From NCBI GenBank assembly GCA_041649715.1, contig JBAZMP010000003.1, forward strand, positions 100,894 through 164,893: a DNA stretch of 64,000 nt, given 5' to 3'. Source of the stretch: Patescibacteria group bacterium (GTDB taxonomy: Bacteria > Patescibacteriota > Patescibacteriia > JAXHNJ01). This document shows, piece after piece, positions 4,726 through 15,181 of the stretch (position 1 is its first letter; every line of letters starts with the position of its first letter). The notes below the pieces were generated by a model. The model did not search any database. It was given only the letters and a program-made list of their open reading frames with translations, and was not told the DNA's origin. The translations under genes and the position numbers were made by a program.

Positions 4726-5439
4726 ATGGCCAGAGAACAAGGCTTATCTCATAACCCGGAAGAGGAAAAAATACTCTCGCTCCTCGCGGAGAAGAAAAAT
4801 TTAGACAATCGCGAAATCAGCAATCTCGCTTTTCAGGAAATCGTTCTGTCCAAATTAACCGGTCAATTCGGCCAGGAAATGCTGAAGGCCGGCATAAAAC
4901 CGGAATGTGTCGAACAAATCACGGTGAATATATTAGCGATTCAAGACAAAAAAATCGTCAGCCAGATGCTGGCGCTACCCGCTAAAATGCGCGAAAGTCG
5001 GTTTGTTACTTACGCCCAGAGCGGCAAAAGCGCCCAAGAGATCCTAAAGGATATGACGATCCTGATCGAACAGACTACAAACGCTTTGGGTGGCGCACCG
5101 GTACTTGGTTTTCACACCAGCCGGACAAAAATATCGCCGCATGAACGATACAATCCCGCGACAAGCACTAACGAAAGACTCTGGGTAGTTAGCGGGACGG
5201 AACATACCGATTACGCGGAAACTCCCCAGGCTTATGCCGCCCGGGACTATGAGCATCTCTATCGCAAAAAGGGAGATCCCGCCTACATTTACTTGGTCAG
5301 AGATAACGAAAAAAACGAAATTGACCCGACCACTGGCTGGTCGAGGGCTTCAAGCTTTGATGTAATCGCGGAGTTGAAAACGGCCGAAGTCGACCAGGAG
5401 ATAGAAAATATCGTTAGTCGCTTAAGAACCGTTGCCTAA
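4726..5439 (+). CDS. Hypothetical protein
   Basis: 237-aa ORF with a promoter-like element upstream. No recognisable motifs. Confidence 0.5.
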   Translation: MAREQGLSHNPEEEKILSLLAEKKNLDNREISNLAFQEIVLSKLTGQFGQEMLKAGIKPECVEQITVNILAIQDKKIVSQMLALPAKMRESRFVTYAQSGKSAQEILKDMTILIEQTTNALGGAPVLGFHTSRTKISPHERYNPATSTNERLWVVSGTEHTDYAETPQAYAARDYEHLYRKKGDPAYIYLVRDNEKNEIDPTTGWSRASSFDVIAELKTAEVDQEIENIVSRLRTVA

Positions 5440-12520: not shown

Positions 12521-12928
12521 CTAAGCGGTTGGTGACGGCTTACTGATGTCTTTCTTCTTTACGCCGACAAGCATCGAACCGACCGCCTGAGCGATAAATA
12601 ACAGATAGGCAACCCAGCTGGCCAGAAAGATGCCCTGCGTGCCGTTCACTAAGAGCATCACCACCATGAACACGGTCGTCATGCCTGACCATAACAGACC
12701 GGCGATAACCGCTTGTTTCCGGCTAACCGGTTTAAGCCACCGACCAAAGGCATAGGAAATAATAATCAAGAAACCGACGACGATGGCCATGCCCAAGGGA
12801 GGCGGGGCGGTCATTTCGGCCCCCTCTTTAACCCCGTAGATAAGAGAAATAATAAAGATGGCGATCATCAATAAGAACCATTGCAATAGGCCGAAGGCAA
12901 AAATTTTAATGATAAATATTTTGTTCAT
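12521..12928 (-). CDS. Hypothetical small membrane protein
   Basis: 135 aa with about 4 TM helices. Confidence 0.45.
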   Translation of the reverse strand: MNKIFIIKIFAFGLLQWFLLMIAIFIISLIYGVKEGAEMTAPPPLGMAIVVGFLIIISYAFGRWLKPVSRKQAVIAGLLWSGMTTVFMVVMLLVNGTQGIFLASWVAYLLFIAQAVGSMLVGVKKKDISKPSPTA

Positions 12929-12974
12929 ATATAAAGGATAGTTTTTGCTCAGGTGGCGTTGCCAACGTTTTAGT

Positions 12975-13049
12975 TGGCAGGGGCGCCTGGATTCGAACCA
13001 GGAATAATGCTTTTGGAGAGCATTGTGATAGCCATTTCACTACACCCCC
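12975..13049 (-). tRNA. tRNA-Trp (anticodon CCA), CCA encoded
   Basis: Minus-strand cloverleaf GGGGGTGTAGTG..ATGCT-CTCCAAA-AGCAT..GGTTCGAATCC..CGCCCCTGCCA. Anticodon loop CUCCAAA. Confidence 0.8.
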
Positions 13050-13354
13050 AGATAATAGATACGGATTATTTCAATTCCTTATGCCCCGTATGCTTACGGC
13101 ACCATCGGCAGTGTTTTTTTAGCTGCAGTTTTTCTTTAACGGTCTTTTTGTTCCTTTTGGAATAATAATTGACGTGTTTGCACACCGTGCATTGGAGTTT
13201 GACGAGATTGTCCTGGGACATGAATTTAAGTTGATTTAAGTTGATTAGTTTATTGAGTTAATTAAGATCATTTTTGACTTGATAAATAGTTGAAATATTT
13301 ATTTAAGCCGACTAGTAATCCTTCATATTCTCGGTCAATTTCTGCAAACGCCTT

Positions 13355-13427
13355 AGCCCACGGTCAGATTCGAACTGACGACCTACTGTTTACAAAACAG
13401 TTGCTCTACCAGCTGAGCTACGTGGGC
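13355..13427 (-). tRNA. tRNA-Thr (anticodon UGU), no encoded CCA
   Basis: GCCCACGTAGCTCAGCTGGTAGAGCAACTGTTTTGTAAACAGTAGGTCGTCAGTTCGAATCTGACCGTGGGCT. Anticodon loop UUUGUAA. Confidence 0.8.
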
Positions 13428-13536
13428 TCGGGCTAAGGCGGGCGGGTCTACCAACTGTCACCCAGAGGGTGATCCGCCTCTGGCGGAAGCTACGTCGGCC
13501 TGTCAGATTTAAGAAAAACGTAATATCCATCCCCAG

Positions 13537-13623
13537 TGGTGGGCAGGGTAGGATTCGAACCTACGAAGCCCGGAGGGCAGCAGATTTACAGTCTGCCCCA
13601 TTTGACCACTTTGGTACCTGCCC
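13537..13623 (-). tRNA. tRNA-Tyr (anticodon GUA), class II long variable arm, CCA encoded
   Basis: GGGCAGG..GCAGA-CTGTAAA-TCTGC-TGCCCTCCGGGC..GTAGGTTCGAATCCTAC-CCTGCCCACCA. Confidence 0.8.
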
Positions 13624-13668
13624 ACCACTGGGGACGAAAAATATTTATTAATTAAACAACATTGGATT

Positions 13669-13697
13669 CGCCGTGTACCAGTAAACGGTACACGGCG
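13669..13697. other. Perfect 11-bp/7-nt-loop hairpin (cgccgtgtacc-agtaaac-ggtacacggcg) between tRNA-Tyr and its partial copy
   Basis: Perfect palindrome with no adjacent U-run. A processing or stability element rather than a canonical terminator. Confidence 0.4.
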
Positions 13698-13722
13698 ACG
13701 TGATCCCTCCAGTGGTTCACGT

Positions 13723-13795
13723 CGAACCTACGAAGCCCGGAGGGCAGCAGATTTACAGTCTGCCCCATTTGACCACTTTGGTACCTGCCCACTAT
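13723..13795 (-). pseudogene. Partial duplicate of tRNA-Tyr (5' end through variable arm; T-arm and 3' acceptor strand replaced)
   Basis: 13723-13791 is identical to 13555-13623 of the intact tRNA-Tyr. The downstream part ('gtgatccctccagtggttcacgt') cannot form a T-arm or acceptor stem. Confidence 0.65.
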
Positions 13796-13889
13796 TGTTT
13801 TCAATAATTGTTTTTAAGTAACTTTTTGAATGCCTTCCCGCCTTTATTAGAATATATACATTATACATTACACATAATACATAATTGAT

Positions 13890-14170
13890 ACAGATTTATG
13901 CCGCCTTTGTCGGCACCCCGGCCGCGGGCGGTGGCAGTCTGTCCATTTACCTGTCCGCCTCGGTTGGAACCGCGGAGCCTGCCCCGAGCTAAGTCAAGGG
14001 GGTACCTGCCCCTAGATTGTCAAAAAGGATGAAGCCCAAAAGCGGATTTGTTACCCTACGGGTGATCTCCCGAAGGGAGATACCGATGATCCTTCGTTTA
14101 CCCTCAGGACAAGCTCTACTCCTTACCCCTCCTTCGCCTACGGCTTCGGAGGGCAGACATGTAGTTGTAA
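13890..14170 (-). other. G+C-rich unassigned, probably structured RNA-like element inside the tRNA cluster
   Basis: About 280 bp of locally high G+C with many short helices (gatctcccgaagggagatc, cggcttcgg, cctgccccgag/cctgcccctag) between two minus-strand tRNAs and co-oriented with them. No convincing ORF. RNase P RNA, tmRNA and SRP RNA signatures are not recognisable by eye. Confidence 0.3.
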
Positions 14171-14183
14171 TTTGTCTGCGGCC

Positions 14184-14259
14184 TGGAGCCGATGGTCGGA
14201 TTTGAACCGACGACCTACTCCTTACCATGGAGTTGCTCTACCAACTGAGCTACATCGGC
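14184..14259 (-). tRNA. tRNA-Thr (anticodon GGU), CCA encoded
   Basis: GCCGATGTAGCTCAGTTGGTAGAGCAACTCCATGGTAAGGAGTAGGTCGTCGGTTCAAATCCGACCATCGGCTCCA. Anticodon loop AUGGUAA. Confidence 0.8.
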
Positions 14260-14290
14260 ATCCCCAGGCCGCAGACAAATTTAAATTTAT

Positions 14291-15181
14291 TTACAAAGAA
14301 TCTATCTGTTTTTTTATTTCCTCGAGTTTTTTGTTCTCCGGATTGACGGCCTGCAATCGGTCAAAGGTCCTGATCGCCAAACCCTTATTTTTCATCTCCA
14401 GACAAACCTGGAGAAGATTATGCAAAATCTTGGGATTTTTAGGTTCTAGTTTTAAAGCCTCTTGGCAGCAGTGTAAAGCCTTGTCTGTCTGACCTAAAGC
14501 CTGATAAACACGGGCTAAATCCAGGTAGTAGGAGGGTTTTTTGTTATTATAAGTGATAGAAGCTAAAAGTTCTTCTTCCGCTTCTTTCAGGTTTCCCAGC
14601 GAAGAAGCGACCAGTCCAAGACCGGAAAGGGCCTGATCATCGGACGCGTTCAATTTAATAAGGAATCGGAATATCTCTTTAGCATGCTCGAAATCCTTCA
14701 TTTCGAGGTAGAGATCGCCCAAATAATGATAGGCGTCTAAATTTTTCGCGTCAAGGCTTAAGACCTCAACACATTTGCCTTCCGCTTCCTTAAAAAGTTC
14801 CCGGTCCTTCAAGGCTCCTGCTTCGCTTAAAAGACTGGAAATTTTCCGCTCTTGTTCGCTTTTTTCTTCCAGGGTGGTCGGGGTTTTGCTTCGGCGCTGA
14901 TATCTTTTTTCCAGTTCGATGATATTCTGGCGCCAATTCCGGGCCTGGTTTTCCAATTTTTTATACACAGGACGGCTATACTTGCTGACTTTTTGAAAAA
15001 GGTTCGAGGCTTTCCTTTTTAGTTTTTGTTCGATCAATTGTTCTTTGACCTGATTCTCCTTTTCTTGGGGCACTTTTTTGATGTCAATGACGCTTAAAAC
15101 GGGAAATTTTCTGATAATAATAATGATGATAACGCTTATAGCGATTAGACCGATGAGGCCGGTGATAATATCTATCAGCAT
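14291..15181 (-). CDS. TPR-repeat protein with N-terminal membrane anchor
   Basis: N-terminal TM helix, then several 34-aa TPR-like units (AYHYLGDLYLEMKDFEHAKEIF.., YYLDLARVYQALGQTDKALHCCQEAL). Confidence 0.55.
   Translation of the reverse strand: MLIDIITGLIGLIAISVIIIIIIRKFPVLSVIDIKKVPQEKENQVKEQLIEQKLKRKASNLFQKVSKYSRPVYKKLENQARNWRQNIIELEKRYQRRSKTPTTLEEKSEQERKISSLLSEAGALKDRELFKEAEGKCVEVLSLDAKNLDAYHYLGDLYLEMKDFEHAKEIFRFLIKLNASDDQALSGLGLVASSLGNLKEAEEELLASITYNNKKPSYYLDLARVYQALGQTDKALHCCQEALKLEPKNPKILHNLLQVCLEMKNKGLAIRTFDRLQAVNPENKKLEEIKKQIDSL

What the first reader, a model, noticed from the sequence alone, without database searches (positions are those of the whole stretch)
13890..14170. G+C-rich unassigned element between tRNAs: possible structured ncRNA
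About 280 bp with strikingly higher G+C than flanking AT-rich spacers. It contains many local helices, some with GNRA-like loops (gatctcccGAAGggagatc, ccgaagccg/cggcttcgg), and has no convincing ORF. It is co-oriented and probably co-transcribed with the minus-strand tRNAs. I could not recognise P4/CR-I-V of RNase P RNA, the tRNA-like end or tag ORF of tmRNA, or the SRP domain IV motif. One stretch (GGGUAACAAAUCCG) weakly resembles the GGUAACAGUCCG element of type A RNase P RNA. It is either a divergent known RNA or something new.
Basis: partly seen in the sequence, partly recalled or inferred. Interest (0 to 1): 0.55.

Follow-up and report, generated by a model that had tools for sequence, protein, structure and literature searches.

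The report
Broken tRNA copies, decayed nuclease cassette
The G+C-rich "unknown RNA" between the tRNAs is a patchwork of broken copies of the neighbouring threonine and tyrosine tRNA genes with stable hairpins inserted into their loops; it appears to be the decayed remains of a small nuclease-gene cassette that sits inside tRNA genes in many bacterial phyla and for which I found no published description.

Summary
Window 13891-14168 is G+C-rich, full of hairpins, has no credible ORF, and reads best on the minus strand. It is not a discrete new RNA gene and matches no Rfam family.

On the minus strand it is a mosaic:
- A partial copy of tRNA-Thr(GGU), nt ~24-76.
- A partial copy of tRNA-Tyr, nt 1-43.
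- G+C-rich hairpins inserted in the D, anticodon and T loops and near the T stem.
- Downstream, the last 16 codons of a lost 80-aa GIY-YIG nuclease gene.

Other Patescibacteria keep the intact unit: a hairpin-interrupted 5' tRNA-Tyr copy, then the GIY-YIG ORF, then intact tRNA-Tyr. A scan of species genomes found this small nuclease gene within 300 nt of a co-oriented tRNA in 40 of 52 loci. These span several phyla and many tRNA types. In about 35 loci, partial copies of a neighbouring tRNA were detected, usually on the other side of the ORF.

The closest long-contig relative lacks X entirely, and the spacer varies from 24 to about 680 nt.

Best reading: X is a relic of a selfish, homing-type cassette nested in a tRNA gene. 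X itself is probably junk. The cassette family and its stereotyped hairpins seem undescribed and are moderately interesting.

The parts
14184..14259 (-). Intact tRNA-Thr(GGU), the parent of the first pseudo-copy. It lies inside an 18-bp leader/trailer helix formed by 14264-14281 and 14169-14186.
   Evidence: ARAGORN; Rfam tRNA 73.4 bits; 18-nt perfect inverted repeat.
14158..14168 (-). Pseudo-tRNA-Thr(GGU) nt 24-34, ACAACTACATG (9 of 11 match the parent GCAACTCCATG). It ends after G34 of the anticodon.
   Evidence: Alignment A3 with the parent tRNA and with L018 and L013; coordinates.
14127..14157 (-). Hairpin insertion 1, in the anticodon loop: TCTG-CCCTCC-(GAAGCCGTAGGCGAA)-GGAGGG.
   Evidence: MFE -15.9 kcal/mol, z -3.0 against shuffles. 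The same position holds TCCGCC..GGCGGA in L013 and CCCCGC..GCGGGG in L018.
14116..14126 (-). Pseudo-tRNA-Thr(GGU) nt 35-45, GTAAGGAGTAG (11 of 11 match the parent).
   Evidence: blastn-short hit of parent nt 34-45; alignment A3.
14092..14115 (-). Insertion 2, AGCTTGTCCTGAGGGTAAACGAAG. It is shared with L018 5108-5135 (CTTGCCCTGAGTGTAAACGAAGG), where it interrupts the T loop of that genome's pseudo-tRNA-Thr.
   Evidence: blastn 91.7% over 24 nt and nhmmer E=4.4e-8 for X against L018; alignment A3. The segment is not significantly structured on its own (z +1.2).
14030..14091 (-). Pseudo-tRNA-Thr T arm and 3' acceptor remnant (GATCATCGGT ... AACAAATCCGC TTTTGGGCTTCA). A double hairpin, ATCTCCC-TTC-GGGAGAT plus CACCC-GTA-GGGT, is inserted in the T loop at 14053-14081.
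   Evidence: Alignment A3; coordinates and fold; inserted segment z -3.5.
13891..14012 (-). Pseudo-tRNA-Tyr nt 1-43: GGGGCAGGTACC at 14001-14012, GGTAAATGGACAGACTG at 13935-13951, TAAATCTG at 13891-13898. A degenerate insertion occupies the D loop (13952-14000). A 36-nt double hairpin, CCACCGCC..GGCCGG GGTGCCGAC-AAA-GGCGGCA, sits after G34 (13899-13934).
   Evidence: Alignment A4 with pseudo-tRNA-Tyr of L005, L013, L024 and L029 and with the parent. blastn 92% over 50 nt to L005 and 89% over 53 nt to L013. The motif recurs at six further distinct sites in L005, L013, L024 and L029. The window's own insertions are no longer significantly structured (z +0.7 and -0.65), whereas the L005 and L013 versions score z -3.6 and -3.9.
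13810..13857 (-). Remnant of the C-terminus of an ~80-aa GIY-YIG (UPF0213-type) gene: IYSNKGGKAFKKLLKN. The stop codon follows at 13801-13803.
   Evidence: This is the best tblastn hit of the L013 GIY-YIG protein in the whole 64-kb window: 69% over 16 aa, E=0.007, at the syntenic position. The intact ORFs match Pfam PF01541 and PDB UPF0213 proteins 1zg2 and 1ywl.
13664..13792 (-). Second pseudo-tRNA-Tyr: 2 nt of leader plus tRNA nt 1-69, 100% identical to the intact gene over 71 nt. It is interrupted in the T loop by a 54-nt double hairpin (13668-13721), continues for ATCC, and then ends.
   Evidence: blastn 71/71 identity; sub-threshold Rfam tRNA hit, 22.2 bits; hairpin MFE -30.1 kcal/mol, z -5.95.
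13537..13623 (-). Intact tRNA-Tyr(GUA), the parent of both pseudo-tRNA-Tyr copies. It lies inside a leader/trailer helix (13530-13547 with 13617-13634).
   Evidence: ARAGORN; Rfam; inverted repeat.
13447..13499 (-). Pseudo-tRNA-Thr 5' fragment, GCCGACGTAGCT ... CAGTTGGTAGA. A double hairpin, TCCGCC-AGA-GGCGGA plus TCACCC-TCT-GGGTGA (13458-13487), is inserted in the D loop. It lies just upstream of intact tRNA-Thr(UGU) at 13354-13428.
   Evidence: Sequence; coordinates and fold, z -3.9. Analogous fragments lie upstream of tRNA-Thr genes in L003, L008, L009 and L024.

Best explanation
X is not an RNA gene of its own. It is a mosaic of two tRNA pseudogene fragments: tRNA-Thr(GGU) nt ~24-76 followed by tRNA-Tyr nt 1-43. 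Their loops carry inserted G+C-rich hairpins.

The tRNA-Tyr part is the upstream arm of a small cassette seen intact in other Patescibacteria. That cassette reads: [5' part of the tRNA, interrupted by hairpins in the D and anticodon loops] - [80-aa GIY-YIG nuclease ORF, starting 0-20 nt after the last tRNA segment in most cassettes] - [intact tRNA]. In this genome the ORF has been deleted down to its last 16 codons, and the arm and its hairpins have begun to decay.

Shown: the mosaic anatomy, the homology to intact cassettes, the ORF stump, and the cross-phylum association between this nuclease and tRNA genes.

Inferred mechanism:
- The cassette is a selfish, homing-type element, probably transcribed from the tRNA promoter.
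- The nuclease breaks cassette-free copies of the tRNA gene.
- Repair from a cassette-bearing copy installs the ORF together with a partial duplicate of the tRNA, so that an intact tRNA is always retained.
- The hairpins cut the direct repeat into identical stretches that are mostly 7-28 bp long. This would hinder recombinational loss of the ORF and possibly re-cleavage.
- In the transcript the hairpins fold locally, so the truncated copy cannot interfere with folding of the real tRNA.

On this reading X itself most likely has no function today.
For: - No Rfam family matches, even at E<=10.
- Colinear exact matches of Thr+Tyr to X total 52 nt, against 22 +/- 6.5 in shuffles (1 of 2000 reach it). 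Controls with other tRNAs or the opposite strand give 19 and 31.
- Alignments A3 and A4 place the parent tRNAs and the homologous modules of L005, L013, L018, L024 and L029 on X. nhmmer gives E=5e-9, 4e-8 and 2e-7.
- A GIY-YIG C-terminal stump sits at the syntenic position. Intact ORFs are present in L005, L012, L013 and L024.
- The gene order TPR - Thr(GGU) - Tyr - Thr(UGU) - Trp is conserved, but the Thr-Tyr spacer ranges from 24 nt (L008) to ~680 nt (L013). L003 lacks X.
- Genome scan: 52 loci were found. In 40, a tRNA lies within 300 nt of the ORF, and all 58 tRNAs are co-oriented with it. About 35 loci also carry partial copies, mostly 100% identical, of a neighbouring tRNA. Some of these listed matches are cross-matches between different neighbouring tRNAs.
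- The architecture is stereotyped, with insertions after nt 12-22 and 33-37.
- The inserted segments are strongly structured: median z -3.5, and 23 of 31 have z < -2.
- Cassette units occur in tandem, as expected if breaks are repaired by unequal alignment.
Against: - No cleavage or mobility has been demonstrated.
- An 80-aa GIY-YIG domain lacks the DNA-binding domain of characterised homing endonucleases.
- The intact tRNA copy beside the ORF has the same sequence as a naive target, so self-immunity is unexplained.
- Hairpin-bearing pseudo-tRNA-Thr fragments without any ORF recur at the same positions in distant relatives (window, L013, L018). Their stems differ in sequence but keep pairing. 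That could mean long-term retention, and therefore function, rather than junk.
- The pseudo segments stay about 100% identical to their parent tRNA even without an ORF. This needs gene conversion, recent origin or selection.
- There are no expression data.
- Assignment of the T-arm remnant in X (14030-14091) rests on about 75-80% identity, counted by hand, over short segments.
Confidence: 0.75

Rival explanations
1. X, or its hairpin-bearing pseudo-tRNA modules, is a functional structured RNA co-transcribed with the tRNA operon. It could be a tRNA-like processing or insulating spacer, an mRNA-stabilising leader, or a decoy for tRNA-binding enzymes or anticodon nucleases.
For: - The hairpins are significantly stable, and many have UUCG, UACG or GAA-type loops.
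- At the same tRNA position, stems differ in sequence between genomes but keep pairing: CCCTCC/GGAGGG, TCCGCC/GGCGGA and CCCCGC/GCGGGG.
- Modules persist across lineages whose neighbouring TPR protein is only 29-45% identical.
- Insertions fall in or beside tRNA loops, often leaving the flanking stems in place.
- The minus strand folds better than the plus strand.
Against: - X as a unit is absent from the closest relative with a long contig (L003) and from L007, L008, L009 and L012.
- The module combinations differ in every genome.
- Two of X's own hairpin insertions are degenerate (z about 0), and the adjoining ORF has been lost.
- The fragments lack an acceptor partner, so no cloverleaf can form.
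- Choosing stems because they pair makes the 'covariation' argument partly circular.
Confidence: 0.12
2. The hairpins are independent miniature palindromic mobile elements, like REP/BIME elements, Rickettsia palindromic elements or yeast mitochondrial GC clusters. On this view they happen to insert into tRNA-like loops, and the tRNA fragments are ordinary duplication debris unrelated to the GIY-YIG gene.
For: - The identical 18-nt palindrome TCCCGATAGCTATCGGGA occurs in pseudo-tRNA-Ser (L033) and pseudo-tRNA-Phe (L067, L071).
- The same 35-nt double hairpin occurs in pseudo-tRNA-Tyr and pseudo-tRNA-Thr(UGU) of L013.
- Several of the insertions are perfect palindromes.
Against: - Within the 64-kb window, hairpins of the T...A form occur only in the tRNA cluster: 3 found, all at 13458-13487 and 14066-14080, against 0.48 expected.
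- They co-occur with the GIY-YIG ORF and pseudo-tRNA segments in a fixed architecture across phyla.
- Most stems are different sequences, not copies of one element.
Confidence: 0.08
3. X is a scar of classical integrase-mediated insertion and excision of phages or islands at tRNA genes (att-site duplications), or a remnant of a group I intron of the kind known in Patescibacteria tRNA genes.
For: - Partial tRNA copies beside intact ones are the usual signature of integrating elements (10.1101/2022.07.05.498093).
- The breakpoints lie in the anticodon and T loops, which integrases favour (from my own knowledge of that literature).
- Group I introns occur in anticodon loops of Patescibacteria tRNAs (PMC13011429).
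Against: - No integrase lies near the cluster. The neighbours are TPR, RicT, EF-Ts, S2, L33 and a DEAD-box helicase.
- The partial copies lie tens of nt to about 270 nt from their parent, not kilobases away. They are interrupted by hairpins, and they include 5' parts as well as 3' parts.
- There is no Intron_gpI hit at E<=10.
- The insertion follows G34, not a U, and no 3' exon follows it.
- There is no phage match.
Confidence: 0.04

Closest known systems
Partial tRNA genes left by integrating mobile elements (phages, ICEs, genomic islands)
   Same: An intact tRNA gene is accompanied by a co-oriented partial duplicate. Foreign DNA lies between them. The arrangement is patchy among relatives (10.1101/2022.07.05.498093).
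   Different: Here the unit is about 0.35 kb, not 9-23 kb. It encodes a mini GIY-YIG nuclease, not an integrase. Either the 5' or the 3' part of the tRNA can be the partial copy. The partial copy is itself split by stereotyped G+C-rich hairpins in the D, anticodon and T loops.
Free-standing GIY-YIG homing endonuclease genes, e.g. phage T4 SegB in the tRNA gene cluster
   Same: A GIY-YIG gene sits among tRNA genes. SegB cleaves a tRNA-gene region of a related phage and spreads by repair-mediated co-conversion (PMC2330249). SegB has also been linked to segmental amplification of tRNA loci (PMC13096335, abstract). That parallels the tandem cassette units seen here.
   Different: From my own knowledge, Seg proteins are over 200 aa and carry DNA-binding domains. 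These proteins are about 80 aa, a bare catalytic domain whose nearest solved relatives are UPF0213 proteins 1zg2 and 1ywl. They are bacterial and chromosomal, they are nested within a duplicated tRNA gene, and no activity has been shown. tblastn finds no match in phage records.
Group I introns in anticodon loops of Patescibacteria tRNA genes
   Same: Same phylum, same kind of target (the anticodon loop of a tRNA gene). Such genes are also missed by standard tRNA finders (PMC13011429).
   Different: There is no ribozyme core (no Rfam hit). The inserts are 18-80 nt hairpins. The insertion follows G34 rather than U35. The interrupted copy is truncated and sits beside an intact, uninterrupted tRNA gene.
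Short G+C-rich palindromic selfish repeats (yeast mitochondrial GC clusters, REP/BIME, Rickettsia palindromic elements)
   Same: These are short G+C-rich palindromes in an A+T-rich context. They can sit inside RNA or protein genes at structurally tolerated positions. This comparison is from my own knowledge of those families.
   Different: The hairpins here are not dispersed. In this window they are confined to the tRNA cluster. They share a form (T, a C-rich arm, a 3-4 nt loop, a G-rich arm, A; often two in tandem) rather than a sequence. They are tied to the GIY-YIG/pseudo-tRNA architecture.

Membership tests
Known structured RNAs (RNase P RNA, tmRNA, SRP RNA, 6S RNA, group I intron and all other Rfam 15 families) | A covariance-model match at or near the family's gathering score | tested here: not met
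   The only hits in the window at gathering score are the four tRNAs. In E<=10 mode on 13600-14300 nothing falls on 13891-14168. The only nearby hits are chance miRNA-model matches on the leader/trailer stem and a 22-bit tRNA hit on the second pseudo-tRNA-Tyr. ARAGORN finds no tmRNA.
tRNA pseudogene / tRNA gene fragment | Colinear sequence identity to a parent tRNA gene, without a complete cloverleaf | tested here: met
   Segments matching Thr(GGU) nt 24-34 and 35-45, the T arm and 3' end, and Tyr nt 1-11, 17-35 and 36-43, lie in the correct order. The chain score is 52 against 22 +/- 6.5 in shuffles, p about 0.0005. Neither ARAGORN nor Rfam calls a tRNA there.
Group I intron in a tRNA gene | A ribozyme core (P3-P9), with 5' and 3' exons flanking it and a U at the end of the 5' exon | tested here: not met
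   There is no Intron_gpI hit. The insertion follows G34. After 8 nt of tRNA sequence the copy ends in A+T-rich DNA and the GIY-YIG stump.
Integrase-type att duplication at a tRNA gene | A tyrosine or serine recombinase gene and a kilobase-scale island between the intact tRNA and an uninterrupted partial 3' copy | tested here: not met
   The neighbouring genes are housekeeping genes. The partial copies lie tens of nt to about 270 nt from the parent, are interrupted by hairpins, and include 5' parts.
Free-standing GIY-YIG homing endonuclease cassette | An intact GIY-YIG ORF next to its target gene | tested here: inconclusive
   In the window only 16 C-terminal codons remain. Intact ORFs (PF01541, E 1e-15 to 1e-18) occupy the same position in L005, L013 and L024, and sit beside tRNA-Trp in L012.
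Free-standing GIY-YIG homing endonuclease cassette | Patchy presence or absence at orthologous sites, and association with the target gene beyond chance | tested here: met
   At the same tRNA-Tyr locus the cassette is present in L005, L013, L024 and L029, is decayed in the window, and is absent in L007, L008, L009, L012 and L018. In 40 of 52 loci a co-oriented tRNA lies within 300 nt.
Free-standing GIY-YIG homing endonuclease cassette | Site-specific DNA cleavage of the cassette-free allele, and a DNA-binding domain | not testable with these tools
   The protein is about 80 aa, a catalytic domain only. Its nearest solved relatives are UPF0213 proteins of unknown function. Biochemistry is needed.
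Dispersed palindromic repeats (REP / GC-cluster type) | Many copies scattered through intergenic regions of the genome | tested here: not met
   All three T...A-type hairpins in the 64-kb window lie in the tRNA cluster. Only 64 kb of the genome could be examined.

The most novel reading that the evidence does not exclude
The hairpin-interrupted tRNA copies may not be debris. They could be the nucleic-acid partner of the mini GIY-YIG nuclease, which has no DNA-binding domain of its own. The tRNA-identical segments of 7-28 nt, separated by conserved-form hairpins, could target the nuclease to the tRNA gene (a guide or recruitment role). They could instead act as an uncleavable decoy or antitoxin for a tRNA-directed nuclease. 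Or they could be the immunity and anti-recombination device of the element. Any of these would define a previously undescribed, cross-phylum system nested in tRNA genes.
Probability: 0.12. Interest if true: 0.8.

Novelty: new variant of a known kind. Interest (0 to 1): 0.42.

Why it matters
For this window the result is deflationary. The candidate 'new ncRNA' is tRNA-gene debris, and annotation pipelines should not call it an RNA gene.

The element it derives from is more interesting.
- About 80-aa UPF0213-type GIY-YIG genes lie next to co-oriented tRNA genes in Patescibacteria, Bacteroidota, Ignavibacteria, Marinimicrobia, Omnitrophota and others.
- They are usually flanked by a partial copy of that tRNA, split by hairpins of a stereotyped form.
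- If these are active homing elements, they are a compact selfish element that persists even in the very small genomes of Patescibacteria.
- They would also be a source of tRNA-gene turnover and allele replacement, a cause of spurious or missed tRNA calls, and a possible source of small nucleases specific for tRNA genes.
- They would give a testable function to a widespread protein family of unknown function.

Tried and rejected
- Rfam at gathering and at E<=10: nothing on X. RNase P RNA, tmRNA, SRP RNA, 6S RNA and group I intron are rejected.
- ORFs in X: no Pfam match.
- Self-similarity of X elsewhere in the window: none, apart from tRNA-derived pieces.
- Promoter and terminator scan of 12900-14500: counts at chance level, nothing informative.
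- Phage records: no DNA match for X and no protein match for the GIY-YIG.
- Covariation test on the hairpin family: abandoned. I had picked the stems because they pair, so the test would be circular. One alignment I built for it (A5) contained a made-up control row and was not used for anything.
- Pyrimidine-rich 5' arms (33 of 35): at first I read this as a strand signal. I rejected that because a palindrome has the same 5' arm on both strands. It describes the hairpin family but says nothing about which strand matters.
- Permuted or split tRNA idea (3' part followed by 5' part): rejected, because the two parts come from different tRNAs (Thr, then Tyr).
- Simple tandem duplication of the Thr-Tyr junction: rejected, because it predicts the opposite order of the fragments.
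- Literature searches: none found a description of the cassette. Subscription-only literature was not searchable.
Full report
**1. The observation**

The region is as described. G+C is 0.50-0.69 across 13900-14199, against 0.23-0.37 in the spacer at 13750-13899. The quoted hairpins exist. The only ORFs, 79 aa and 62 aa, have no Pfam match. The four tRNA genes (Trp, Thr-UGU, Tyr, Thr-GGU) are all on the minus strand. The 304-nt stretch folds modestly better than shuffles on the minus strand (z -2.24) than on the plus strand (z -1.21). The tRNA cluster 13340-14270 holds 5 perfect G+C-rich hairpins against 0.35 expected.

**2. Known RNA families**

Rfam 15 at gathering thresholds finds only the four tRNAs. 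With permissive filters (E<=10) on 13600-14300, nothing falls on 13891-14168. The only extras are chance microRNA-model hits, caused by an 18-bp helix that flanks tRNA-Thr(GGU), and a 22-bit tRNA hit at 13733-13790. RNase P RNA, tmRNA, SRP RNA, 6S RNA and group I introns are therefore not supported.

**3. Organism and context**

The neighbouring genes on the minus strand are rpsB, tsf, ricT (PSP1) and a TPR protein upstream, then L33 and a DEAD-box helicase downstream. The RicT protein is identical to one from a 'Patescibacteria group bacterium' MAG, so the window comes from a member of the candidate phyla radiation.

**4. What X is made of**

Read on the minus strand, X breaks down completely.

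- 14158-14168, ACAACTACATG: tRNA-Thr(GGU) nt 24-34, 9 of 11 matching.
- 14127-14157: a hairpin inserted after G34.
- 14116-14126, GTAAGGAGTAG: nt 35-45, 11 of 11 matching.
- 14092-14115: an inserted segment also present in L018.
- 14030-14091: a T-arm and 3'-acceptor remnant, with a double hairpin (14053-14081) in the T loop.
- 14013-14029: a 17-nt spacer.
- 14001-14012, GGGGCAGGTACC: the start of tRNA-Tyr.
- 13952-14000: a degenerate D-loop insertion.
- 13935-13951: tRNA-Tyr up to G34.
- 13899-13934: a 36-nt double hairpin.
- 13891-13898, TAAATCTG: tRNA-Tyr nt 36-43.

The colinear exact-match total of Thr+Tyr against X is 52 nt, against 22 +/- 6.5 in shuffles (1 of 2000 reach it). Other tRNAs give 19 and the opposite strand gives 31. 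The 'RNase P-like' GGGUAACAAAUCCG is a hairpin arm joined to the remainder of the T loop.

- A second pseudo-tRNA-Tyr at 13722-13792 is 71/71 identical to the real gene. It is cut in the T loop by a 54-nt double hairpin.
- A 5' fragment of a tRNA-Thr at 13447-13499 has a double hairpin in its D loop.

**5. Relatives**

Using the adjacent TPR protein as anchor, I obtained 22 metagenomic loci. Three more came from RicT homologues.

The order TPR - Thr(GGU) - Tyr - Thr(UGU) - Trp is conserved, but the Thr-Tyr spacer ranges from 24 nt (L008) to about 680 nt (L013). The closest relative with a long contig (L003, RicT 70% identical) has no X at all.

X is therefore not conserved as a unit, but its modules recur.
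- L018 and L013 carry, right after their tRNA-Thr(GGU), a partial copy starting at nt ~22-24. It has a hairpin at exactly the same anticodon position. The stems differ in sequence: CCCCGC/GCGGGG, TCCGCC/GGCGGA, and CCCTCC/GGAGGG in the window.
- L018 also shares CTTGYCCTGAGKGTAAACGAAGG with X.
- L005, L013, L024 and L029 carry the 5' part of tRNA-Tyr with the same 35-38-nt double hairpin after G34. L024 and L029 also have a D-loop hairpin, as X does.

**6. The missing gene**

In L005, L013, L024 and L029 the interrupted tRNA-Tyr copy is followed within 5-20 nt by the start codon of an 80-81-aa ORF. That ORF matches Pfam GIY-YIG (E 7e-15 and 2.5e-18) and ends about 0-30 nt before the intact tRNA-Tyr. 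Its nearest solved relatives are UPF0213 proteins 1zg2 and 1ywl.

In the window, the best tblastn hit of this protein anywhere in the 64 kb is at 13857-13810 on the minus strand, exactly between X and the next tRNA-Tyr copy. It reads IYSNKGGKAFKKLLKN against IKSYKGGEAFKKLIEN (E 0.007), and a stop codon follows shortly after.

X's tRNA-Tyr half is therefore the upstream arm of a cassette whose ORF has been deleted. Consistent with decay, the arm carries mismatches to the parent. Its two insertions are no longer significantly structured (z +0.7 and -0.65), whereas the L005 and L013 equivalents score z -3.6 and -3.9.

**7. The cassette is general**

An alignment of four such ORFs was used to scan one genome per GTDB species. 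It found 52 loci in Patescibacteria, Bacteroidota (including complete chromosomes), Ignavibacteria, Marinimicrobia, Omnitrophota, Acidobacteriota and others.

- All 58 tRNA genes in these 3-kb loci are co-oriented with the ORF. In 40 of 52 loci a tRNA lies within 300 nt: 20 upstream and 20 downstream.
- The tRNAs are of many types: Tyr, Ser, Val, Ala, Asn, Pro, Arg, Cys, Glu, Gln, Trp, Met, Phe, Leu, Asp and Gly.
- About 35 loci also have partial copies, mostly 100% identical, of a neighbouring tRNA, usually on the other side of the ORF. Some of these listed matches are cross-matches between different neighbouring tRNAs.

Two configurations occur.
- The first is [5' part, interrupted] - ORF - [intact tRNA].
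- The second is [intact tRNA] - ORF - [3' part with a hairpin in or in place of the anticodon arm].

In the first configuration the insertions follow nt 12-22 (D loop) and nt 33-37 (anticodon loop). This leaves identical stretches that are mostly 7-28 nt long, although L037 keeps an uninterrupted 50-nt stretch. Tandem units occur in L005, L024, L034, L035, L055, L058 and L067.

**8. The hairpins**

The inserted segments were defined objectively as the gaps between tRNA-identical stretches. They are strongly structured: median z -3.5, and 23 of 31 have z < -2.

Most have the form T, a C-rich arm of 5-7 nt, a 3-4-nt loop, a G-rich arm, then A. Examples are TCCGCC/GGCGGA, TCACCC/GGGTGA, TCTCCC/GGGAGA, TGCCGCC/GGCGGCA, TCTCGC/GCGAGA, TCCCGAT/ATCGGGA and TCCGGC/GCCGGA. 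They often come in tandem pairs, and some are perfect palindromes.

In the 64-kb window this form occurs three times, all in the tRNA cluster, against 0.48 expected. So they are not a dispersed repeat here.

**9. Most likely mechanism**

Shown: the anatomy, the homology to intact cassettes, the ORF stump, the cross-phylum association with tRNA genes, the patchy distribution and the tandem amplification.

Inferred:
- The cassette is a selfish, homing-type element, probably transcribed from the tRNA promoter, because there is little or no room for one before the ORF.
- The nuclease breaks cassette-free tRNA genes.
- Repair from a cassette-bearing copy installs the ORF with a partial duplicate of the target, so an intact tRNA is always kept.
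- The hairpins fragment the direct repeat. This would hinder recombinational or single-strand-annealing loss of the ORF, and perhaps re-cleavage. In RNA the hairpins fold locally.

Signs of allele replacement fit this model. X's tRNA-Tyr fragment carries the ACAGA/TCTGT anticodon-stem pair found in L013 and L029, not the window's own GCAGA/TCTGC. The 5' fragment at 13488-13499 (GCCGACG) matches tRNA-Thr(UGU) of L013, not the window's AGCCCACG.

Weak points:
- No activity has been demonstrated.
- The protein is only a bare 80-aa catalytic domain.
- Self-immunity of the intact copy is unexplained.
- ORF-less hairpin-bearing fragments persist at the same positions in distant lineages, which leaves room for an RNA-level or DNA-level function.

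**10. Comparison with what is known**

- Partial tRNA genes are a well-known by-product of integrating elements (10.1101/2022.07.05.498093). Those islands are kilobases long, carry integrases, and leave uninterrupted 3' repeats.
- T4 SegB is a GIY-YIG homing endonuclease in a tRNA cluster (PMC2330249). It has been linked to amplification of tRNA loci (PMC13096335, abstract). It is a larger phage protein.
- Patescibacteria do carry group I introns in tRNA anticodon loops (PMC13011429), but X has no ribozyme core and no 3' exon.
- Seven full-text searches found no description of mini GIY-YIG genes nested in duplicated, hairpin-interrupted tRNA genes. Literature outside the searchable library could not be checked.

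**11. Verdict**

The finding is real as a sequence feature, but it is not a new ncRNA gene. It is a decayed arm of a GIY-YIG cassette nested in a tRNA gene, together with a hairpin-riddled partial tRNA-Thr copy. X itself is of low interest. The cassette family and its stereotyped hairpins look like a new variant of mobile elements that target tRNA genes, and they deserve a dedicated census and biochemistry.

Noticed in passing
window 14264-14281 with 14169-14186; 13530-13547 with 13617-13634; L005 about 4912-4926 with 5003-5016; L018 about 4940-4950 with 5024-5036: The intact tRNAs sit inside long leader/trailer helices that extend the acceptor stem. The helix around tRNA-Thr(GGU) is 18 perfect bp and includes the encoded CCA. 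Relatives have different sequences but the same pairing. This could be an RNase III-type processing stem, or the inverted ends of a unit that carries the tRNA. It remains unexplained.
   Followed up: partly
L003 7690-7840: In the closest long-contig relative, the only tRNA-Thr(GGU)-like gene has a 5' acceptor strand (GCCCACC) that cannot pair with its 3' strand (CATCGGC), and ARAGORN misses it. It looks like a chimera of a Thr(UGU) 5' end and a Thr(GGU) body. A 5' tRNA fragment carrying nested hairpins precedes it.
   Followed up: partly
L029 1501-1770; L030 1492-1503: In L029 the GIY-YIG ORF reads through into the intact tRNA-Tyr, and its stop codon TAA is U35-A36-A37 of the anticodon loop. 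In L030 the start codon ATG lies inside the last tRNA-Ser-derived segment, TTAAGGATG.
   Followed up: no
L033 1418-1435; L067 1400-1417; L071 1403-1420: The identical 18-nt perfect palindrome TCCCGATAGCTATCGGGA is inserted in the D loop of a pseudo-tRNA-Ser in one Bacteroidota genome and of pseudo-tRNA-Phe in two others. This suggests the hairpin modules move or are exchanged between cassettes.
   Followed up: partly
all hairpin insertions listed: In 33 of 35 stems the 5' arm is pyrimidine-rich (C-rich) and the 3' arm is G-rich, usually bracketed by T...A. This property is the same on both strands of a palindrome, so it defines the family but does not show whether RNA or DNA is the relevant form.
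   Followed up: yes
L012 6795-7233; L051 1400-1840: A more divergent GIY-YIG ORF (45% identical to the tRNA-Tyr-associated ones) sits immediately upstream of tRNA-Trp. It is preceded by a tRNA-Trp 5' copy that runs through the anticodon into the hairpin CCCGC-TGAATCG-GCGGG. This is the same architecture at a different tRNA in the same gene cluster.
   Followed up: partly
L031 1205-1836: After tRNA-Tyr and the GIY-YIG ORF, ARAGORN calls an 87-nt 'tRNA-Phe(AAA)'. Its 3' 44 nt are identical to the tRNA-Tyr. This is probably a cassette-derived tRNA-Tyr copy with an altered anticodon region, mis-called as a tRNA gene.
   Followed up: no
L005 5440-5476: A run of N and a duplicated block around the cassette indicate an assembly gap or a collapse of tandem cassette units in that metagenomic contig. 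Copy number there is uncertain.
   Followed up: no
L012 5270-5307; L013 5380-5417: A conserved ~30-nt leader (ACGGAGGMTGGARCGYGATT...GA) directly precedes the tRNA-Tyr 5' end in two genomes. In L013 it precedes the pseudo-copy rather than the intact gene.
   Followed up: no
window 12521-12928 (minus strand): A 135-aa ORF downstream of tRNA-Trp, at the position where secE/nusG would be expected in many bacteria, has no Pfam match.
   Followed up: no
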